This document shows, piece after piece, positions 5,485 through 54,780 of a stretch of DNA of 64,000 nt. A program made the translations under genes and the position numbers. Every line of letters starts with the position of its first letter. Within the stretch, counting starts at the first letter, position 1. The DNA comes from a virus: IMG/VR virus record IMGVR_UViG_3300012665_000925, positions 32,001-96,000 of that record; one strand, written 5' to 3'. The notes under the pieces were generated by a model, which searched no databases, was not told the DNA's origin, and saw nothing but the letters and a program-made list of their open reading frames with translations.

Positions 5485-8400
5485 ATGGCACTCGTAGGTG
5501 AAGCAAGAATTAAGGTTGTTGCTGATACAAGCAAAGTCCGTGAAGAAATTCAAAAGGCTTTTGGCAACATGGAGAAGGACGCTGATAAAGCTGGAAACAG
5601 CGTATCTAAATCTTTCAACAGAGGCATGTCAAATGGCATGGGTAATGGAAACGCTTTTAAGAAATTTACTAGCGAATCCAAACAACTATCGAGTCAGTTC
5701 CACAAAGCAATCCGTAGCAGCTATAAGTGGCAAGCAGCAACAGGAGCTTTGCTACAAAGCATAATGGCGCTCGGTGGCGGTCTTCTCGCTCTCGTTGGTA
5801 ACATAGCTGGTGCCGCTTCGGCTGGTATCGCGCTTGTTGGTGTTATGGCTCAGATTAAAGTTGCCAGCATGGTTGCCAAATCTGCCTTCAAGGGTGTTAT
5901 GGAGGCAGTCAAGAAAGACTCCAAAGGCGCTGGCGAAGCTGGTAAGACAATCAAAGAGCTGCGCGAAGAGATGCAGCAACTTGCATTCGCCGCAGAAGAG
6001 GCTGCTCTTGGTGAAGAAGCAGCGTCCATCAAACTTGAAAAAGCTCGTGAATCTCTGGCTCGTGTTCAAAACCTTCCGCCAGACAACCGTGCCCGACGTG
6101 AAGCGGAGCTAGCCTATAAAGAGGCTGAACTTGGCTATCGTAAAGCTAAAGACAAAAACGCTGACGCCGAAGATGCAATCATCAATCCTAAAAAGAAAAA
6201 GGGTTCGATTGGCGATGACCCTTATAAGGACTTGACCAAGAGTCAAAAAGAGTTTGCAATATACCTAAAGAGCGTAATGCCTGAGTTTAAGAAGCTCAAC
6301 GAGGCGGCAGCTAGTGGCTTCCTTCCAGAAGTAAAAAAGGGAATGCAAGAAATGTTTAAGGGCGGTCTATTTGACCGCCTTGTAAAGGGCTTTGAAGATG
6401 TCGGTAAGGGTCTAGGTAAGGCGACTAAAAACTTCGCTGGGACAATGTTCGACCCTCAGAACCAGAACAACCTCTCTACGTTCTTCAAGAACACTGCCAC
6501 GACTACAGGAACTCTCGGTACAGTCCTAGGAAAAGCATTCTCTGGCTTCCTTACGCTGATGACTGCAATCAATCCGCTTATTACTAGGTTCACCAGCTTC
6601 CTAGAGATGAAAGCAACTGGATTCTCTAAAAACATGCAGGGCGACTTTGCCAATGTTCAGGCGTTTTTTAAGCAAGCTGGAGATGCAGCCGCTGGATGGG
6701 GTACAATCCTAGGACGTATCTTTGATAAGTTCAAAGGCATGATTAAGGCTAACGTCGGTCCTGGTACTGGCGGTCAGCTTCTTCTAGACTACTTCAAGCA
6801 AGGTACTGACGGATTCCGTGGGCTAGACGGTGCTGCTGGAGAGTTTGCTCGAAAGAACCACTTCCTAGCATCTGCTACCAACCTAAAAGCTATGCTTGAG
6901 AGCGTTAGCAAAATATTTGGCTTTATGTCTGACCTAGGTACTGACCCTGCTGTTGCTAGTTTCTGGGGTATTCTATCTGAGCTAGAGGGGCCGCTCAGCC
7001 ATATATTTGAATCTATTACTGGCTCTTCCGATGAGTTAGCTAAGCTACTAGTTACGGTAGTTGAGATTGTTGCATCGTTCACTGATGCTGGTCAGTTGAA
7101 TGCATACATGGGAATTTTAAGCAATATTTTTGGTATCCTCGGTGGAATTGTTAGGACGCTTTCTCCTGTCTTAGCCTTCTTTGGACCAGCTGTAGGTGCT
7201 ATCGGTGCGCTGGTGACTACTATGCTCCTTCTGAAGAAGGTCACCATGCTCGTGACTGGTACCACTATGGTGCTTGGTAAAGGCATCGGCTGGGTTACCA
7301 GAATGACTCAGGGATTGATTCTTGCCAACAAGACTCACCTGGCTCAGGAAACCCTGAGCATGCGAATTAAGCGAGCCCTGATTATGCTAACTACCGCTGA
7401 GGGTAGAGCAAAGATGATGGCATCTCTTAAAGTAATCTTCTCTGCTGGTGCTAGCCAAAAAGCAGCTCAGGCTGATGCTCAGGCTGCGATAGCTAAGGCT
7501 GCTGCTACAGGAGCTACTGTTGCTCAGTCGGTAGTAACTACCGCTGCTATCGGCCCTACTATGGCCTTGTCTGCTGCCATCAACTCAGCTATCTGGCCTC
7601 TAACTCTTATTGTTGCCGCTATTGCTCTAGTTGTGGTGGGTATCATCGCCCTTGTAGGCTGGCTAAACCAGATTAAAGCTGACCAGGTTAAAAAAGCTGG
7701 TAAGGAAATTGACTCTCAGTTTACAGCAACTAAGGGCAAAATCATTGGTGCCGCCGAAGCTCAGGATATGTGGAGTGCTTCGCTTCTCTCTATGCGTGAT
7801 GACCAAAAAACTGGAATCAAAAGCATCAAAGAGATGGGTAAGGCTCTAAACGAACAGGGAATTTATGTACAAGGCTATGGAACTGTACAGTCAGAAGCCC
7901 ATAAGAACGCTAAAGAAGCCCTAGATGTGTATATGAGCAGCTTAGCTAAACTTGCAAAGAAGAACTTGCCAGAGGCTCAACGCCAGTTCCGCAACATGAT
8001 TGTATCTAGCGGAATGAACAAGCAAGCTACCATGGATTCCATTGTTGCAAACAAGGACATGGTTAAGTCTCTGGAGAAGCAAGCCAAGGCAATGGGTGAC
8101 ACCATTATGAATGCCGACGGTACAGTGAATGCTCTGAAGGCGCTCGACTATGCTATTGGCGAAGGCTCTTATGTTCGCCAGAAAGCTATTCTAGAGCAAA
8201 GAAAGTTTGCCGAAACCTTTAAGAATGCTGCTTCTACATTTATTGATAGCAATGAAGCTATGCAAAATGCTACCACTGATGGCAAGCTTGACCTTAAGAA
8301 GTATGTCAAAGAGCTAAAGAACCAGGGAGGGGAGCTCACTAGCTGGAGAGCTAACATCACCAAGCTGAATGGTCTCTTCACAGATAAAAAGGTTCTTCAG

Positions 8401-18953: not shown

Positions 18954-19481
18954 CTATTTAGAAGTTGACTTCTTATTTTGTAGTTTTACTCTTGCTGCTC
19001 TCTTGCGGGCTTGTTCTTTTTGTGCACGAATCATTCGTTCTGCTCTTTGAGCGTGGTAAGCGTCTACAGCATTTGCACTAGTTCTGCTCTGCCATTCAAA
19101 ACCACACTCGGTACACTCAACCATACGCATTGTCGCCCAGCGGCCACCATTAGGTCGCTCTACAGTTTTTGTCACTAGGTCCAACGTCTTTGTGTCGCAA
19201 CCTGGGCACTTAGGGAATCGCTTACGACGAATCTCCTGACCTTCCCAGTTAATGGAAAGTGTGCGTTTGATTCGCTTCTGGTCCATGCCACCCCAGACGC
19301 CGTCCTTCTGCTTATCTTCTAGTGCCCACTTAGCACACTGGAGACGAACAGGGCAGTCGTTGCAAATTATTTTTGCAGATGCAATATCTGTTTTGTTGTT
19401 GGAGAAAAATATTTCAATCTTTTCTCTGTACTTTGGCTTAGCACACTCGGCATCTTCATGCCACTCTAGGTCTGAACTCAC
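18954..19481 (-). CDS. whiB: WhiB family transcription factor with C-terminal Zn-ribbon
   Basis: WHEDAEC...FF...AKIICNDCPVRLQC...GVWGG, plus CPGC and CTEC pairs. Confidence 0.85.
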   Translation of the reverse strand: MSSDLEWHEDAECAKPKYREKIEIFFSNNKTDIASAKIICNDCPVRLQCAKWALEDKQKDGVWGGMDQKRIKRTLSINWEGQEIRRKRFPKCPGCDTKTLDLVTKTVERPNGGRWATMRMVECTECGFEWQSRTSANAVDAYHAQRAERMIRAQKEQARKRAARVKLQNKKSTSK

Positions 19482-19825
19482 GGAATCTCTATTTCTACAA
19501 AAGTGATTTCCTGAATATCTTCTATTAGGTCTCCGAGAGGCGAGTTACCGTCTTCATCGCAGAAGGTTAGGTACTCATCCCCACCGACTGAGCCTGCCCA
19601 GCCATGCTGAGTATCTCCGTTGTCTATAAGTTTGAATGCCTCGGCCAGACTGTGCACAATCCCGTCACGCTGTAGCGTAGATGCGAGGGCACGCTTCACT
19701 ACTTCATGCTCTATGTCTACGTGTTCTTCTGTGTAGAACACCAATCCAAGGTCGCCTTTAGTGTACGGAAAGTCGTAACCTTCCCACTCAGACCAAAGGG
19801 CCTCGCCTTTTCTAGAATCTTTCAT
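19478..19825 (-). CDS. hypothetical protein
   Basis: 115 aa acidic. Leaderless promoter (TAGAAT 6 nt before ATG). Confidence 0.6.
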   Translation of the reverse strand: MKDSRKGEALWSEWEGYDFPYTKGDLGLVFYTEEHVDIEHEVVKRALASTLQRDGIVHSLAEAFKLIDNGDTQHGWAGSVGGDEYLTFCDEDGNSPLGDLIEDIQEITFVEIEIP

Positions 19826-51543: not shown

Positions 51544-51852
51544 ATGGATTTCTACCACGATGCACCAGATTTCCTCGAAAATGCAGATGCCCCCTGCGCG
51601 GAGACCTTCCCTGACATGTTCTTCGCTGACGAACCTAAACCAGGGGTTCTTTCATACCGCTCAACCTATGAGTTTGAAAACGAAGCAAAAAAGGTTTGTG
51701 CTGAGTGCCCTTACCGACTAGCCTGCCTAAAGTACGCTATGGACCATCAAGAAATCCAGGGCATCTGGGGCGGACTTACTGAAAAAGACCGAACCGCTGT
51801 CCGCCGTGGTACCCGCGGAATCAATATTACCTACCGCAATAGAAGTCGCTAA
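51544..51852 (+). CDS. whiB: WhiB family transcription factor
   Basis: C...PDMFF...AKKVCAECPYRLAC...GIWGG...R. Confidence 0.88.
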   Translation: MDFYHDAPDFLENADAPCAETFPDMFFADEPKPGVLSYRSTYEFENEAKKVCAECPYRLACLKYAMDHQEIQGIWGGLTEKDRTAVRRGTRGINITYRNRSR

Positions 51853-52542: not shown

Positions 52543-53292
52543 ATGACTTATAAGTTAGTTGCTTTTGACCTAGACGGAACTCTTGCGGAGAGTAAGTCCC
52601 CTATTTCTGATGAGATGGCCGAGACACTAGAAAAACTACTTACCATTGCTCAGGTTTGCGTCATCACTGGCGGTGGTGAGAATCAACTACGCTCTCAGGT
52701 GGCAGATAGGCTGACTACATCTAAAGGTTTACACCTGATGCCAACATGCGGTACTAGATATTTGGTGCGTAATAAGCGTCATTGGGCTGTCCAATACTCT
52801 GAGGATATCTCTACTATCGACTCCCGTAGAATCGCTAGGATTGTTCAAGAGTGTGCTGAGGATTTAGACATCTGGGAGAAAAGACCCTACGGAGATATTA
52901 TCGAGCGTAGAGGTTCGCAGGTTACCTTTTCTGCCCTGGGACAAGAAGCTCCTCTTGATGAGAAGTTAGCCTGGGACCCCGACGGGTCTAAGAAGATTGC
53001 CCTACGAGATGCGGTGGCAGAAAAACTGCCTAGCTTTGAAGTTCGATGCGGCGGTACAACTAGCATCGACATTACCCGCAGCGGAGTGGATAAAGCCTAT
53101 GGCATTCGCAAACTAAGTATGGTTACTGGTATCTCTACTGGTGAAATGCTTTTCATCGGTGATAGACTTGACTCCAATGGCAACGACTATCCAGTGATTT
53201 TTACTGGGGCTACTTGCATTGAAGTATCAGGACCAGAGGAAACTCTGGGTGTAATTAAAGACCTAATCAATAACGTTCTTAAGGAGAACTAA
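52543..53292 (+). CDS. HAD-IIB hydrolase, eukaryotic-type phosphomannomutase-like
   Basis: FDLDGTL, ITGG, ERRGSQVTFSALG, GGTTSIDI, GDRL..NGNDY. Confidence 0.8.
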   Translation: MTYKLVAFDLDGTLAESKSPISDEMAETLEKLLTIAQVCVITGGGENQLRSQVADRLTTSKGLHLMPTCGTRYLVRNKRHWAVQYSEDISTIDSRRIARIVQECAEDLDIWEKRPYGDIIERRGSQVTFSALGQEAPLDEKLAWDPDGSKKIALRDAVAEKLPSFEVRCGGTTSIDITRSGVDKAYGIRKLSMVTGISTGEMLFIGDRLDSNGNDYPVIFTGATCIEVSGPEETLGVIKDLINNVLKEN

Positions 53293-53426
53293 TGGCAAAA
53301 GGTAAAGGTGGCGGTGGACAGACTCCGCAGAAAACAACGACTGACCGTAAGAACGGTAAGGCTGAGAAGAAGCGTCCAAAGTTTTTCGATGCAATCAAGC
53401 GTCGTCTAGTAACAAAAAAGAACTAA
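53292..53426 (+). CDS. small, very basic protein (44 aa)
   Basis: MAKGKGGGGQTPQKTTTDRKNGKAEKKRPKFFDAIKRRLVTKKN, read manually. RBS AAGGAG. Confidence 0.65.
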   Translation: MAKGKGGGGQTPQKTTTDRKNGKAEKKRPKFFDAIKRRLVTKKN

Positions 53427-53463
53427 TCAGGTATACTGATAGTACAACTAAATAGTGCAACAT

Positions 53464-53765
53464 GGGGATGCCTGGTTTCGACTGGCAGACTTTAACATGG
53501 TGAAGCAAGCAGAAACGGCCACGCATTCTTAAAGTGTGGTAAAGAAATAAATGCTGAATCTCGTTCAACATTCGCTCTAGCCGCGTAATCTTAGGATTCG
53601 CCGTTAGGCCCCTGACAAAGCAGTAGTTCTAGCTGGGCAGTCAGGTTTTAAATAAGTAGAACACGCAATGCCCGCAATACCCGTAGTACCGTGGCTGGTA
53701 GAGCCTAAGCTTGTAGAAGAACATCTAAACCTGTTAGGACGGGGGTTCGATTCCCCCCATCTCCA
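53464..53765 (+). ncRNA. ssrA: tmRNA
   Basis: 5' GGGGATG...GGTTTCGAC. Tag ORF 53553-53588 AESRSTFALAA* after ATAAAT. 3' GGACGGGGGTTCGATTCCCCCCATCTCCA with G3.U pair. TATACT -10 at 53432. Confidence 0.95.
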
Positions 53766-53775
53766 CGGATTTGGT

Positions 53776-53804
53776 TTGACATCGCGGAGAGGCTTTGTTA
53801 GACT
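53776..53804 (+). promoter_or_regulatory. sigma-A-type promoter
   Basis: TTGACA-N17-TAGACT. Confidence 0.75.
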
Positions 53805-53810
53805 AATCTA

Positions 53811-54068
53811 CTGACTAGTGGCAGCAGCAGAAGCTGACCCTTAGTGAAATAGACGCAAGACCGAAGTACGAGAACCCGAACCTGAAGCTCATTGCGAGCG
53901 GACGCAGACGAAGTACCGAGAAGTGAGCCGAAAGACTAGCATTGGAATCAGGAGTCGCGCCCTGGACCTAGTTACTATGAGAAATGATGGTTGGCTACTA
54001 ACCCGCACGGCGATAAGTAGTAGATAAAAACCTGCACCTCTGTTCGTAAGTTCATGTGCAGGTTCTCA
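53811..54068 (+). ncRNA. candidate structured ncRNA of unknown family
   Basis: Own promoter, no credible ORF, several stems and an imperfect 22-23 nt direct repeat. Confidence 0.55.
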
Positions 54069-54069
54069 T

Positions 54070-54141
54070 TGACCGCTAGCTCAACGGCAGAGCGTCTCCC
54101 TGTTAAGGAGGTGGTTCCTGGTTCGAATCCAGGGCGGTCAG
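54070..54141 (+). tRNA. tRNA-Asn(GTT)
   Basis: TGACCGC/GCGGTCA acceptor stem, anticodon loop CTGTTAA, GGTTCGAATCC. CCA not encoded. Confidence 0.92.
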
Positions 54142-54155
54142 CAATAAGGAGAGAT

Positions 54156-54497
54156 ATGCCTGTACCTAAGAAGATATTGATAGGAACCCAGTCCTGGGAG
54201 ATTATCGAGCGTTCTCGTAAAGTGGATGCTTCTCTCAATGAAGACGACTATGGCTACACTCTGAGCAAAGAGAATCGCATTGTCATTGACGCTGACATTA
54301 CTGATAGTCGCAAGCGTCAAACCCTGTTCCATGAAATCATGCACGCTGTCCGCTTTACGCTGGGCGGATACCCTACCCCTAAGAAGACTGACGATGTTGA
54401 TGTCTGGGAGCACTACTTCATCGGGATGTATGAAGAGGGTCTACTTTTGACCCTGCAAACCAACCCAGAACTTCTTGAGTTTTTATTAGAGAAATAG
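54156..54497 (+). CDS. HExxH zinc metallopeptidase-like protein
   Basis: TLFHEIMHA. RBS AAGGAG. Confidence 0.7.
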   Translation: MPVPKKILIGTQSWEIIERSRKVDASLNEDDYGYTLSKENRIVIDADITDSRKRQTLFHEIMHAVRFTLGGYPTPKKTDDVDVWEHYFIGMYEEGLLLTLQTNPELLEFLLEK

Positions 54498-54555: not shown

Positions 54556-54780
54556 ATGGCAGCGTATCGCAAAGAGCTACAAGAACTCATAAAGACTGCT
54601 GAGAAGCAGGGCTGGGTAGTATCAGCCAACAAGAACAACCACTACAAGTGGACTTCGCCAGGCGGAGCGTTCTTCTTCTCTGCAAGCACCCCCTCTGACT
54701 GGAGGGCTCTCAAGTACATCGTCCAGTACCTACGCAAGTATGGTTTTGAAGAGACTAATGGAAAGAAGAAGACCAAATGA
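54556..54780 (+). CDS. HicA-like protein
   Basis: LIKTAEKQGW.V...NNHYKW..P.G...STPSD.RA......LRKYGF. Confidence 0.65.
   Translation: MAAYRKELQELIKTAEKQGWVVSANKNNHYKWTSPGGAFFFSASTPSDWRALKYIVQYLRKYGFEETNGKKKTK

What the first reader, a model, noticed from the sequence alone, without database searches (positions are those of the whole stretch)
53776..54068. Unidentified ~260-nt structured RNA between tmRNA and tRNA-Asn
Seen: own consensus promoter and no credible ORF. Domain 1 is closed by TGACTAG(53812)/CTAGTTA(53968). It holds hairpins CAGC-AGAA-GCTG and TCAGG/CCTGG. GCTCATT can pair locally (GAGC) or with AGTGAGC. A purine-rich imperfect direct repeat GACGCA(A)GAC(C)GAAGTAC(C)GAGAA occurs at 53852 and 53901. 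Domain 2 has CTACTA/TAGTAG and a 9-bp AACCTGCAC/GTGCAGGTT stem. I recognise no family. Inference: a novel phage ncRNA released by tRNA 5' processing, possibly a two-site protein decoy (anti-toxin or anti-defence) or a scaffold, analogous in location to tRNA-linked phage RNAs such as GOLLD/ROOL.
Basis: partly seen in the sequence, partly recalled or inferred. Interest (0 to 1): 0.8.

Follow-up and report, generated by a model that had tools for sequence, protein, structure and literature searches.

The report
New phage small RNA beside tmRNA
The gap between a phage's ribosome-rescue RNA gene and a tRNA gene holds a real, conserved gene for a folded small RNA of an uncatalogued family, found only in a small group of freshwater phages, whose job is still unknown.

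Summary
Observation confirmed; interpretation partly supported. Window 53769-54069, between a phage tmRNA (53464-53768) and tRNA-Asn (54070-54142), matches no Rfam family. Alone it folds no better than shuffles (z -0.59). Comparison shows it is real. A core of about 180 nt (53807-53990) recurs directly behind the related tmRNA in 15 other loci, giving 8 distinct sequences in 3 deep lineages that are 50-57% alike. All keep TTGACA, the spacing and TG-TAnnnT. One lineage ends in its own intrinsic terminator, so this is a stand-alone sRNA gene. Three helices hold: 95.8% of cells pair against 25-40% when slid, and 10 of 15 pairs show compensatory changes. A fourth, invariant helix would make a cloverleaf-like four-way junction, but it is untested by covariation. 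The 3' domain (53991-54069) occurs only in the window and one other lineage; there the RNA runs into tRNA-Asn, so RNase P would set its 3' end (inferred). The direct repeat is not kept in a 93% relative, which weakens the two-site decoy idea. It is not manA, tRNA, tmRNA, GOLLD or ROOL. Function is unknown; my best guess is a protein-binding, tRNA-shaped RNA. This scan had not noted the family on other DNA.

The parts
53464..53768 (+). Phage tmRNA gene (tag AESRSTFALAA). In every locus found, the small-RNA gene sits directly behind this gene.
   Evidence: ARAGORN. Rfam RF00023 at 109 bits.
53776..53804 (+). Promoter of the small RNA: TTGACA, 17-nt spacer, TG, then TAGACT. The start of transcription is inferred near 53810-53812.
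   Evidence: Listed at 10 of 12 with TG. TTGACA and TG-N-TAnnnT are kept in 8 of 8 distinct relatives, while the spacer sequence differs between lineages. The start site is inferred, not shown.
53807..53990 (+). Conserved core of the small RNA (domain 1), the part shared by the whole family.
   Evidence: nhmmer family profile E 1.3e-28 for the window and 4e-36 to 6e-47 for 15 loci. Alignment A2.
53812..53818 (+). P1, 5' strand of the closing helix. It pairs with 53968-53974.
   Evidence: The five aligned P1 pairs are 95% paired and 4 of 5 show compensatory changes. The G-U pairs fit only the + strand.
53822..53836 (+). P2 hairpin CAGC / loop AGCAGAA / GCTG. The family loop is AGCNGAN.
   Evidence: 5 pairs, 94.9% paired, 2 with compensatory changes. 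Loop letters A, G, C, G and A are invariant.
53838..53845 (+). Candidate P3a 5' strand (CCCTTAGT; CCCATAGC in most relatives). Its proposed partner is 53939-53945.
   Evidence: 97.9% of cells can pair against 12-40% when slid, but there is no covariation. In the window one pair is a U-U mismatch. Tentative.
53852..53874 (+). First copy of the imperfect direct repeat. It lies in the variable distal arm.
   Evidence: Seen directly; exact core listed (D3). Changed at 53863, 53865, 53867 and 53871 in the 93% relative.
53887..53899 (+). P4 central hairpin GCTC / ATTGC / GAGC.
   Evidence: G53887A and C53899T change together in the RNA-library contig. Other lineages have a hairpin of different sequence at this place (seen; not formally counted).
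53901..53922 (+). Second copy of the direct repeat.
   Evidence: Its 5' half is changed in the 93% relative at 53905 and 53909, with an insertion behind 53907; 53922 is also changed.
53939..53945 (+). Conserved GCATTGG (GCATYGG in the family), the candidate P3a 3' strand.
   Evidence: Invariant columns in A2. Pair counts.
53948..53965 (+). P5 hairpin TCAGG / AGTCGCGC / CCTGG. The loop holds the invariant TCGCG.
   Evidence: 5 pairs, 97.5% paired, 4 of 5 with compensatory changes. TCGCG is invariant in 8 of 8.
53968..53974 (+). P1, 3' strand.
53975..53990 (+). Conserved single-stranded tail (family form TTAYTAYGAGAAAGA-like).
   Evidence: Alignment A2.
53991..54069 (+). Domain 2, a lineage-specific 3' extension. 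It holds CTACTA/TAGTAG and the 9-bp hairpin 54029-54064, and it ends at the tRNA.
   Evidence: Found only in the window and in L025, L026, L039 and L040, at 88% identity. The hairpin is, I2. There is no terminator-like site in 53769-54069.
54070..54142 (+). tRNA-Asn (GTT). Its 5' maturation would define the 3' end of the window's form of the RNA.
   Evidence: ARAGORN and Rfam. Cleavage by RNase P is inferred from general knowledge of tRNA maturation.

Best explanation
Window 53776-54069 is a stand-alone gene for a stable, folded small RNA of a new family. The family is carried by a small clade of freshwater phages, probably phages of Actinobacteria, and always sits directly behind their tmRNA gene.

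Proposed transcription and ends:
- The host RNA polymerase starts at a consensus promoter (TTGACA, 17 nt, TG, TAGACT).
- The conserved core of about 180 nt folds into a closing helix P1, a hairpin P2 with loop AGCNGAN, a long variable arm, and a hairpin P5 whose loop holds an invariant UCGCG.
- P5 abuts the 3' strand of P1.
- If the invariant CCCAUAGC/GCAUYGG pairing (P3a) forms, the fold is a four-way junction with the topology of a tRNA cloverleaf whose anticodon arm is replaced by an arm of 70-95 nt.
- In one lineage the RNA ends at its own intrinsic terminator.
- In the window it carries an extra 80-nt 3' domain and runs into tRNA-Asn, so RNase P cleavage at 54069/54070 would set its 3' end.

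Shown: the family, the promoter signature, the terminator, three helices and the strand.

Inferred: the transcription start, release by RNase P, and P3a.

Committed guess for function (about 35% on its own): the RNA acts in trans by binding a protein. It would be a tRNA-shaped scaffold or decoy within the phage's tmRNA/tRNA island, recognised through the P1/P5 stack and the invariant loops, and not through long antisense pairing.
For: Family and distribution:
- nhmmer with the window alone finds L025, L026, L039 and L040 (E 5.5e-28) and L030 and L035 (E 9e-10).
- The family profile finds 15 loci plus the window and nothing else in 190 loci (1.28 Mb).
- 11 of 37 viral contigs that hold the related tmRNA 20-mer carry the element.
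- Two independent element motifs scanned over all viral contigs gave 12 true members of 30 hits and 12 of 13 hits. All 12 lie directly behind the tmRNA.

Structure:
- RNAalifold predicts 24 pairs, 12 of them with compensatory changes.
- For P1, P2 and P5, 95.8% of cells pair against 25-40% when slid, and 10 of 15 pairs show changes on both sides. On three of the five measures (cells paired, cells changed on both sides, covariation score) 0 of 500 shuffles reach the observed value; on the other two, 25 and 29 of 500 do.
- Lineages are only 50-57% identical.
- The RNA-library variant changes G53887A and C53899T together. All 13 listed changes inside the RNA fall in the distal arm, 53863-53936.
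- The four-way-junction model equals the minimum free energy fold in L030 and lies within 2.3-4.3 kcal/mol of it in L175 and L025.

Gene signals:
- -35 and extended -10 are kept in 8 of 8, with divergent spacers.
- The TTGACA-N16-18-TANNNT pattern occurs 7 times in the window against 2.2 expected.
- L014 has a terminator of 9 pairs followed by a T run.
- No conserved ORF.

Expression hint:
- A 433-nt contig at depth 33 in a metatranscriptome library covers 53737-54037.

Host context:
- A WhiB domain scores 64 bits.
- The nearest NrdJ is that of Actinomycetia phage DSL-LC01, 75% identical.
Against: - The window sequence alone folds no better than shuffles (z -0.59).
- There are only 8 distinct sequences in 3 deep lineages, so independent events are few. 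Relatedness alone can beat the shuffle control.
- The arm between P2 and P5 is not resolved. Single-sequence folds disagree with each other.
- P3a never varies, so nothing tests it.
- Enforcing the four-way junction costs about 10 kcal/mol against the minimum free energy fold in the window and in L014.
- Transcription is not shown. The RNA-library contig may come from DNA, and contigs cannot show ends.
- No partner was found. No protein family tracks the element.
- 26 of 37 related tmRNA loci lack the element, so it is dispensable for the tmRNA.
- ARAGORN and the Rfam tRNA and tmRNA models do not recognise it. The tRNA likeness is one of topology only.
- The protein-binding mechanism rests on the pattern of conservation, not on any direct test.
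Confidence: 0.45

Rival explanations
1. It is a classical base-pairing regulatory sRNA. A conserved accessible stretch pairs with a host or phage mRNA and changes its translation or decay. Candidate stretches are GCCCAUAGCAACC after P2, the P5 loop UCGCG, and the tail UUAUUAUGAGAAAGA.
For: It is a stand-alone unit with a promoter and a terminator. Short invariant stretches lie in loops and junctions. It is expressed from a host-type promoter and so probably early, which is an inference.
Against: The longest conserved stretch differs at 5 of 13 positions in the window, which would need a co-changed target. That stretch can also pair within the RNA as P3a. Global duplex energies with the phage's own tmRNA are no better than shuffled controls in 5 of 5 lineages. 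That test is crude, and no host genome is held, so no target search was possible.
Confidence: 0.25
2. It is a transcribed spacer with no trans function of its own. It would be a structured trailer of the tmRNA precursor and leader of the tRNA-Asn precursor, which guides or protects processing and supplies a promoter and terminator for its neighbours.
For: It always abuts the tmRNA 3' end, with no terminator between them. In the window and L025 it abuts tRNA-Asn. The tmRNA and the tRNA do not encode CCA and need 3' and 5' processing (plus general knowledge).
Against: 26 of 37 related tmRNAs do without it. In the L014 lineage no tRNA follows. It has its own conserved promoter. Loops and junctions are invariant while helices covary, which is more constraint than a spacer needs.
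Confidence: 0.12
3. It is an architectural RNA that self-assembles into dimers or larger RNA-only assemblies through kissing loops, as reported in vitro for the phage manA RNA.
For: The invariant P5 loop contains the self-complementary CGCG. Short phage RNAs under 200 nt form kissing-loop oligomers and cages in a 2026 preprint (10.64898/2026.07.01.735769; abstract and sections 7 and 8 read). A true manA RNA lies about 500 nt downstream in L175.
Against: There is no similarity to manA. A 4-nt palindrome in a loop is weak evidence. Nothing here tests oligomerisation.
Confidence: 0.08
4. It is a cis-acting leader, such as a riboswitch or attenuator, that controls tRNA-Asn and the downstream metallopeptidase-like gene (54156-54497).
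For: In the window the promoter, the RNA, the tRNA and the peptidase-like gene form one unit without a terminator. The window shows an alternative long-range pairing of 53870-53886 with 54051-54067, which competes with the 9-bp hairpin (I1).
Against: The downstream genes differ between lineages: tRNA-Asn, a 112-aa protein behind a terminator, or another RNA module. The alternative pairing is not kept in L025 (judged by eye).
Confidence: 0.04

Closest known systems
T4 RNAC and RNAD (small stable RNAs of the T4 tRNA region)
   Same: They are small RNAs transcribed from a phage tRNA cluster and have no known role. [quoted passage not shown] The position and the likely release by tRNA-processing enzymes are alike.
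   Different: There is no sequence similarity. blastn of the element against 50,697 phage records found nothing. The host phylum differs, and this RNA has its own promoter and, in one lineage, its own terminator. I did not compare the structures of RNAC and RNAD.
manA RNA (Rfam RF01745)
   Same: It is a structured RNA of aquatic phages that often stands as a gene of its own in tRNA/tmRNA islands. A true copy lies in L175 at 6075-6255 (61 bits), about 500 nt downstream of the element. Earlier notes of this scan report manA-like RNAs beside phage tmRNA.
   Different: The manA model gives no match at E up to 10 in 3 of 3 family members tested in sensitive mode: the window, L014 and L175. None of the manA consensus words printed is present.
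tRNA and the tRNA-like domain of tmRNA
   Same: The topology is alike if P3a forms. The matching features are a 7-8 bp closing helix, a 4-5 bp hairpin with a 7-nt loop 0-2 nt after it, one base before the next helix, and a 5-bp hairpin that abuts the 3' strand of the closing helix. That last feature gives a stack of 12-13 bp. It also lies beside tmRNA and tRNA genes.
   Different: It has no T-loop or D-loop consensus, no anticodon arm and no CCA context. ARAGORN calls nothing at default settings, and at relaxed settings only inconsistent noise. The Rfam tRNA and tmRNA models do not match.
GOLLD and ROOL RNAs
   Same: They are phage-borne non-coding RNAs of unknown function, often near tRNA genes. 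That placement is recalled, not tested here.
   Different: As recalled, those RNAs are longer than 500 nt; this one is 180-260 nt. No Rfam model matches.
Protein-sequestering sRNAs (6S RNA, CsrB/RsmX type)
   Same: This is the proposed mode of action only: a stable folded RNA that titrates a protein.
   Different: No Rfam match. There are no repeated GGA loops and no 6S-like central bubble. In L175 weak rsmX, istR and isrB hits (E 0.06-0.8) fall on a different module, at 5924-6022.

Membership tests
Any Rfam 15 family | Covariance-model score at or above the family's gathering score. | tested here: not met
   Window at gathering threshold. 12 related loci at gathering threshold. Sensitive mode (E up to 10) on the window 53400-54200, L014 1420-1690 and L175 5370-6300. 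No match lies inside the element with E below about 0.9.
manA RNA (RF01745) | Model score of 55.2 bits or more, and the pseudoknotted core with its conserved words as printed. | tested here: not met
   No manA match at E up to 10 in 3 of 3 members tested. The same search finds the true manA in L175 at 61 bits.
tRNA / tmRNA | T-arm with a UUCRANY-type loop, acceptor stem with discriminator and CCA context, and detection by ARAGORN or by RF00005/RF00023. | tested here: not met
   ARAGORN at default settings, with and without introns, made 0 calls on 6 members. At a score threshold of 70-80% it made inconsistent calls on either strand, and in tmRNA mode 0 calls on 6. Rfam gave none.
tRNA-like topology (four-way junction) | Four helices meet with short linkers, and the last hairpin abuts the 3' strand of the closing helix. 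| tested here: inconclusive
   P1, P2 and P5 are supported. P3a is compatible in 47 of 48 cells but never varies. The model equals the minimum free energy fold in L030 but costs about 10 kcal/mol in the window and L014.
Stand-alone bacterial/phage sRNA gene | Own promoter, defined 3' end, no ORF, conserved structure. | tested here: met
   Promoter signature in 8 of 8. Intrinsic terminator in the L014 lineage. No conserved ORF. Covarying helices. Transcription itself was not testable beyond one RNA-library contig.
GOLLD / ROOL | A large ornate RNA (over 500 nt, recalled) that matches its Rfam model. | tested here: not met
   No Rfam match. Length is 180-260 nt.
Type III antitoxin RNA (ToxI-like) or an RNA antitoxin of the neighbouring HicA-like gene | Tandem repeat units next to, and co-occurring with, the toxin gene. 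| tested here: not met
   There are only two imperfect copies, and they are lost in the 93% relative. The HicA-like ORF scores below Pfam's cut-off (19.4 against 27 bits) and occurs in 1 of 16 element-bearing loci.
T4 RNAC/RNAD | Sequence similarity to the T4 RNAs. | tested here: not met
   blastn of the element against the phage collection found no match. Structural similarity was not tested.

The most novel reading that the evidence does not exclude
The RNA is a tRNA-shaped decoy or hijacker. It would be a four-way-junction RNA whose P1/P5 stack imitates the acceptor/T-arm minihelix. The phage would make it early to occupy a host enzyme that reads tRNA or tmRNA shape. Candidates are a tRNA- or tmRNA-directed defence nuclease, a nucleotidyltransferase toxin, or a processing enzyme. 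This would protect the phage's own tmRNA and tRNA set. That would be a new class of RNA-based counter-defence, physically linked to phage tmRNA.
Probability: 0.12. Interest if true: 0.8.

Novelty: new member of a known kind. Interest (0 to 1): 0.47.

Why it matters
Phage tRNA and tmRNA islands have long been known to hold small stable RNAs whose roles are unknown, T4 RNAC and RNAD being the textbook case. This locus adds a clean new family with a promoter, a terminator, covarying helices and invariant loops, tied tightly to a phage tmRNA. It also shows that the slot behind that tmRNA is a hot spot. At least three unrelated, uncatalogued RNA modules, and a manA RNA nearby, are swapped there between related freshwater phages. 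If the RNA proves to bind a host factor of translation or RNA metabolism, it would show how phages of abundant, hard-to-culture freshwater Actinobacteria take over or protect translation. As it stands, this is a solid candidate for Rfam and for structure probing, not a surprise.

Tried and rejected
Searches for relatives that gave nothing:
- Protein-guided search with the HAD-like neighbour found no relative in viral contigs.
- The 13 peptidase-guided loci L001-L013 lack the element.
- An exact 23-mer of the repeat had 0 hits in viral contigs.
- blastn against 50,697 phage records found nothing.
- No whole genome is held for the window.
The 29.7-kb contig that encodes a 93%-identical peptidase (P0001) could therefore not be fetched.
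- Genome scans gave 0 hits for the strict two-part motif. The 5' motif gave 32 hits, about the chance number by my own rough estimate. None extends beyond the motif, and the best, L194, lies inside a 281-aa ORF.

Likenesses considered and dropped:
- A 9-nt likeness of the first repeat copy to the sarcin-ricin loop of 23S rRNA. This was recalled, not tested with a tool. It was dropped because that copy is changed in the 93% relative.
- An ACC-rich sponge. ACC is the most enriched trimer (21 against 11.4, z 3.3 among 64 trimers), which is too weak to build on.

Partner searches:
- Pairing with the phage's own tmRNA by whole-length duplex energies was no better than shuffles, and the method is uninformative.
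- No ORF family is exclusive to element-bearing loci. The best candidate, a 112-aa protein, also occurs in element-free loci and is absent from the window.
- The HicA-like, peptidase, small basic, HAD and cytidylyltransferase genes do not track the element.

Other checks:
- Domain 2 has a weak likeness to the L014 central hairpin (E 0.81), which is chance level.
- Long-range pairings within the window (I1, I3, I5) are not kept in L025.
- Actinomycetia phage DSL-LC01 has no tmRNA.

Sequencing runs:
- Flanking coding DNA has no cover in RNA run X15, and runs X16 and X19 have no cover of the element. Both are told here only and are not used as evidence.
- RNA contigs that stop at 53766-53770 with adapter letters probably reflect mature tmRNA ends of many organisms.

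Technical failures:
- mafft-qinsi is not installed.
- timed out.
- The constraint string was two characters short, so its output is void and is not used.

Literature:
- Six searches were run. For some searches I saw only listings and starts of abstracts, and none describes an RNA gene behind a phage tmRNA.
- Supplements are closed. Motif lists in the supplements of RNA-motif discovery papers could hold this RNA under another name.
Full report
OBSERVATION. The window holds a tmRNA gene at 53464-53768 (ARAGORN; Rfam 109 bits) and tRNA-Asn at 54070-54142. The 301 bases between them match no Rfam family, either at gathering thresholds or in sensitive mode at E up to 10. The longest + strand ORF with a start codon is 34 aa. 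Taken alone the sequence is not special. Its minimum free energy is -82 kcal/mol against -79 +/- 5 for dinucleotide shuffles (z -0.59), and the opposite strand gives z -1.19.

RELATIVES. The element has no match in 50,697 phage records, and no whole genome is held for the window. Loci found through the neighbouring peptidase-like protein (L001-L013) lack it. In L002 the related tmRNA is followed by tRNA-Asn after only 60 nt. A 20-mer of the tmRNA recovered 37 viral contigs, and 11 of them carry a homologue of the element directly behind the tmRNA. Two independent element motifs were scanned over all 2.9 million viral contigs. One gave 12 true members among 30 hits and the other 12 among 13, and they were the same 12 contigs, always behind the tmRNA. 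Scans of 185,579 species-representative genomes gave 0 hits and then 32 chance hits. In all there are 16 loci including the window. They hold 8 distinct sequences in three deep lineages: the window; L025, L030 and L175; and L014, L095, L064 and L036. Lineages are 50-57% identical to each other. Only the core 53807-53990 is shared. Domain 2 (53991-54069) occurs only in the window and the L025 group.

GENE SIGNALS. All 8 distinct sequences keep TTGACA, a 16-18 nt spacer of divergent sequence, TG, one base, and TAnnnT. The scan tool lists the window's site at 10 of 12. The same pattern occurs 7 times in the window against 2.2 expected, mostly within the RNA island. In the L014 lineage the RNA ends in an intrinsic terminator of 9 pairs, 7 of them G-C, followed by a T run. 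One pair of that stem differs in a compensatory way in L036, judged by eye. The tool did not list the L014 promoter because its -10, TAATGT, matches TATAAT at only 3 of 6 positions. It does fit the looser TAnnnT form, which I recall as typical of Actinobacteria. In L030 and L035 the core is followed by a second RNA module and then a terminator. In the window, L025 and L175 it is followed by tRNA-Asn. The core is therefore an independent module with varying 3' ends. In the window no terminator-like site lies between the promoter and the tRNA. The 3' end would thus be made by RNase P at 54069/54070, which is an inference from general tRNA biology.

STRUCTURE. RNAalifold on the 8-sequence alignment A2 predicts 24 pairs, 12 with compensatory changes.
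- For P1 (window 53812-53818 with 53968-53974), P2 (53822-53836) and P5 (53948-53965), 95.8% of 119 cells form standard pairs. Slid controls give 25-40%.
- 10 of 15 pairs have changes on both sides. On three of the five measures (cells paired, cells changed on both sides, covariation score) 0 of 500 shuffles reach the observed value; on the other two, 25 and 29 of 500 do.
- With three lineages the number of independent events is small, but several pairs show three or four pair types. The G-U pairs fit only the + strand.
- The loop letters AGC.GA in P2 and UCGCG in P5 are invariant, as are GCCCAUAGCAACC-like and GCAUYGGA stretches.
- These two stretches can pair as CC-AU-GC with GC-AU-GG, which I call P3a. 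This would turn the core into a four-way junction with short linkers, and P5 abuts the 3' strand of P1. That is the topology of a tRNA cloverleaf with a very long third arm.
- P3a is compatible in 47 of 48 cells against 12-40% when slid, but it never varies, so covariation says nothing about it.
- The model equals the minimum free energy fold in L030 and is 2.3 and 4.3 kcal/mol above it in L175 and L025. It costs about 10 kcal/mol in the window and L014.
- The distal arm of 70-95 nt is variable and unresolved. Each lineage has a small central hairpin of different sequence there.

A NEAR RELATIVE IN SEQUENCING RUNS. A 433-nt contig (depth 33) in a freshwater metatranscriptome library (X15) covers 53737-54037 with 20 differences and one gap. 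A DNA run (X1) covers 53687-54007 with 2 differences.
- All 13 listed changes inside the RNA fall in 53863-53936, the distal arm.
- G53887A and C53899T change together, keeping the GCUC/GAGC hairpin as ACUC/GAGU and breaking the alternative GCUCAUU/AGUGAGC pairing.
- C53929T and C53936T turn two G-C pairs of a small hairpin with a GAAA loop into G-U.
- Four changes in the first repeat copy, and three changes plus an insertion in the second, destroy the direct repeat.

The repeat is therefore specific to the window's lineage. L014 has a different internal repeat of its own, so some two-fold character may recur, but this was not tested. The contig sits in an RNA library, which hints at transcription without proving it.

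WHAT IT IS NOT.
- Not manA. This scan's earlier notes led me to test that. The manA model finds the true manA in L175 at 6075-6255 but nothing in the element in 3 of 3 members tested.
- Not a tRNA or tmRNA.
- Not protein-coding.
- Not an antitoxin of the HicA-like ORF, which is present in 1 of 16 element loci and scores below Pfam's cut-off.
- No protein family tracks it.
- It shows no special complementarity to the phage tmRNA, by a crude test.

HOST AND CONTEXT. The window encodes a WhiB domain (64 bits), which I recall as confined to Actinobacteria and their phages. Its class II ribonucleotide reductase is 75% identical to that of Actinomycetia phage DSL-LC01, a metagenome-assembled lake phage. 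That phage has no tmRNA. The sequencing runs that hold parts of the locus are labelled freshwater, lake or estuary. Only X1, X15, X16 and X19 were laid.

MECHANISM. The following are shown: a conserved, independently promoted, structured RNA on the + strand. The rest is inference. The pattern of constraint, in which helices covary while loops and junctions are invariant and one arm is free to vary, is the pattern of RNAs that present a shaped surface to a protein or to another RNA. It is not the pattern of a long antisense regulator. The fixed position beside tmRNA and tRNA genes and the possible cloverleaf topology point to the tRNA and translation machinery. I therefore commit to a protein-binding, tRNA-shaped scaffold or decoy at about 35%. 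My other estimates are a base-pairing sRNA at about 25%, a processing spacer at about 12%, a self-assembling RNA at about 8% and a cis leader at about 4%. That it is a real sRNA gene of a new family I hold at about 90%.

NOVELTY. This is a new family of a known kind, namely small stable RNAs in phage tRNA/tmRNA islands. T4 RNAC and RNAD are the example; their roles are still unknown according to a passage in PMC3014915. Three literature searches on RNAs beside phage tmRNA (listings and starts of abstracts only) found no description of this one.

Noticed in passing
L021:738-850 (+); also L027, L046, L031, L030:110-209 (-), L035:6481-6580, L175:5932-6027: A second uncatalogued structured RNA module of about 100 nt with its own terminator. 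It sits directly behind the tmRNA in some phages, behind the present element in L030 and L035, and behind tRNA-Asn in L175. It occurs in 7 loci by nhmmer (E 5e-11 to 4e-31). Two stems show compensatory differences between L021 and L030, judged by eye. Rfam gave no match at gathering thresholds.
   Followed up: partly
L002:5185-5244; L032:7165-7224; L049:3047-3106 (-); L017:3700-3752; L038:4527-4581: A third small conserved module of about 60 nt lies behind the same tmRNA family, in 5 loci by nhmmer (E 2e-5 to 1e-13). In L002 it fills the whole gap between tmRNA and tRNA-Asn. Rfam gave no match.
   Followed up: partly
window 53292-53426: A 44-aa, very basic ORF (MAKGKGGG...KRRLVTKKN) lies immediately upstream of the tmRNA. 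tblastn finds relatives in 36 of the held loci, usually just before the tmRNA or the tRNA cluster. It has no Pfam family. It might be an RNA-binding peptide of the island.
   Followed up: partly
L175:6075-6255: A true manA RNA (RF01745, 61 bits) in a metagenome contig. The order along the contig is tmRNA, the present element, tRNA-Asn, the second module, then manA. The region is a dense island of small RNA genes.
   Followed up: partly
window 53870-53886 and 54051-54067: A 17-nt stretch of the distal arm is 82% complementary to the 3' half of the 9-bp hairpin of domain 2. The full-length minimum free energy fold uses this long-range pairing. It is not kept in L025, so it is probably chance or specific to this lineage.
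   Followed up: partly
window 54029-54064 and L025:4715-4796: The 9-bp hairpin with its 18-nt loop just before tRNA-Asn is letter-for-letter identical between the window and the L025 group. The adjacent tRNA-Asn differs at several positions. The hairpin is more conserved than the tRNA, and this is unexplained.
   Followed up: no
window 54556-54780: The HicA-like ORF is a weak call (Pfam E 0.0012, 19.4 bits against a cut-off of 27). It has no relative in any of the 190 held loci.
   Followed up: partly
window 51544-51852: A WhiB-family transcription factor gene (Pfam 64 bits), with a second weaker WhiB-like match at 19266-19511 on the minus strand. This supports an actinobacterial host.
   Followed up: partly
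window 53737-53770 in runs X16, X19 and X1: The T-arm and acceptor end of the tmRNA reaches depths of 80-720 in runs where the rest of the locus has depths near 5. Several contigs stop at 53766-53770 and are followed by sequencing-adapter letters. These are probably mature tmRNA 3' ends of many organisms that share this conserved end.
   Followed up: no
window 53776, 54500, 55587, 56477, 60476: Five of the window's seven exact TTGACA-N16-18-TANNNT sites lie on the + strand within the 7-kb RNA island, one before each small unit.
   Followed up: no
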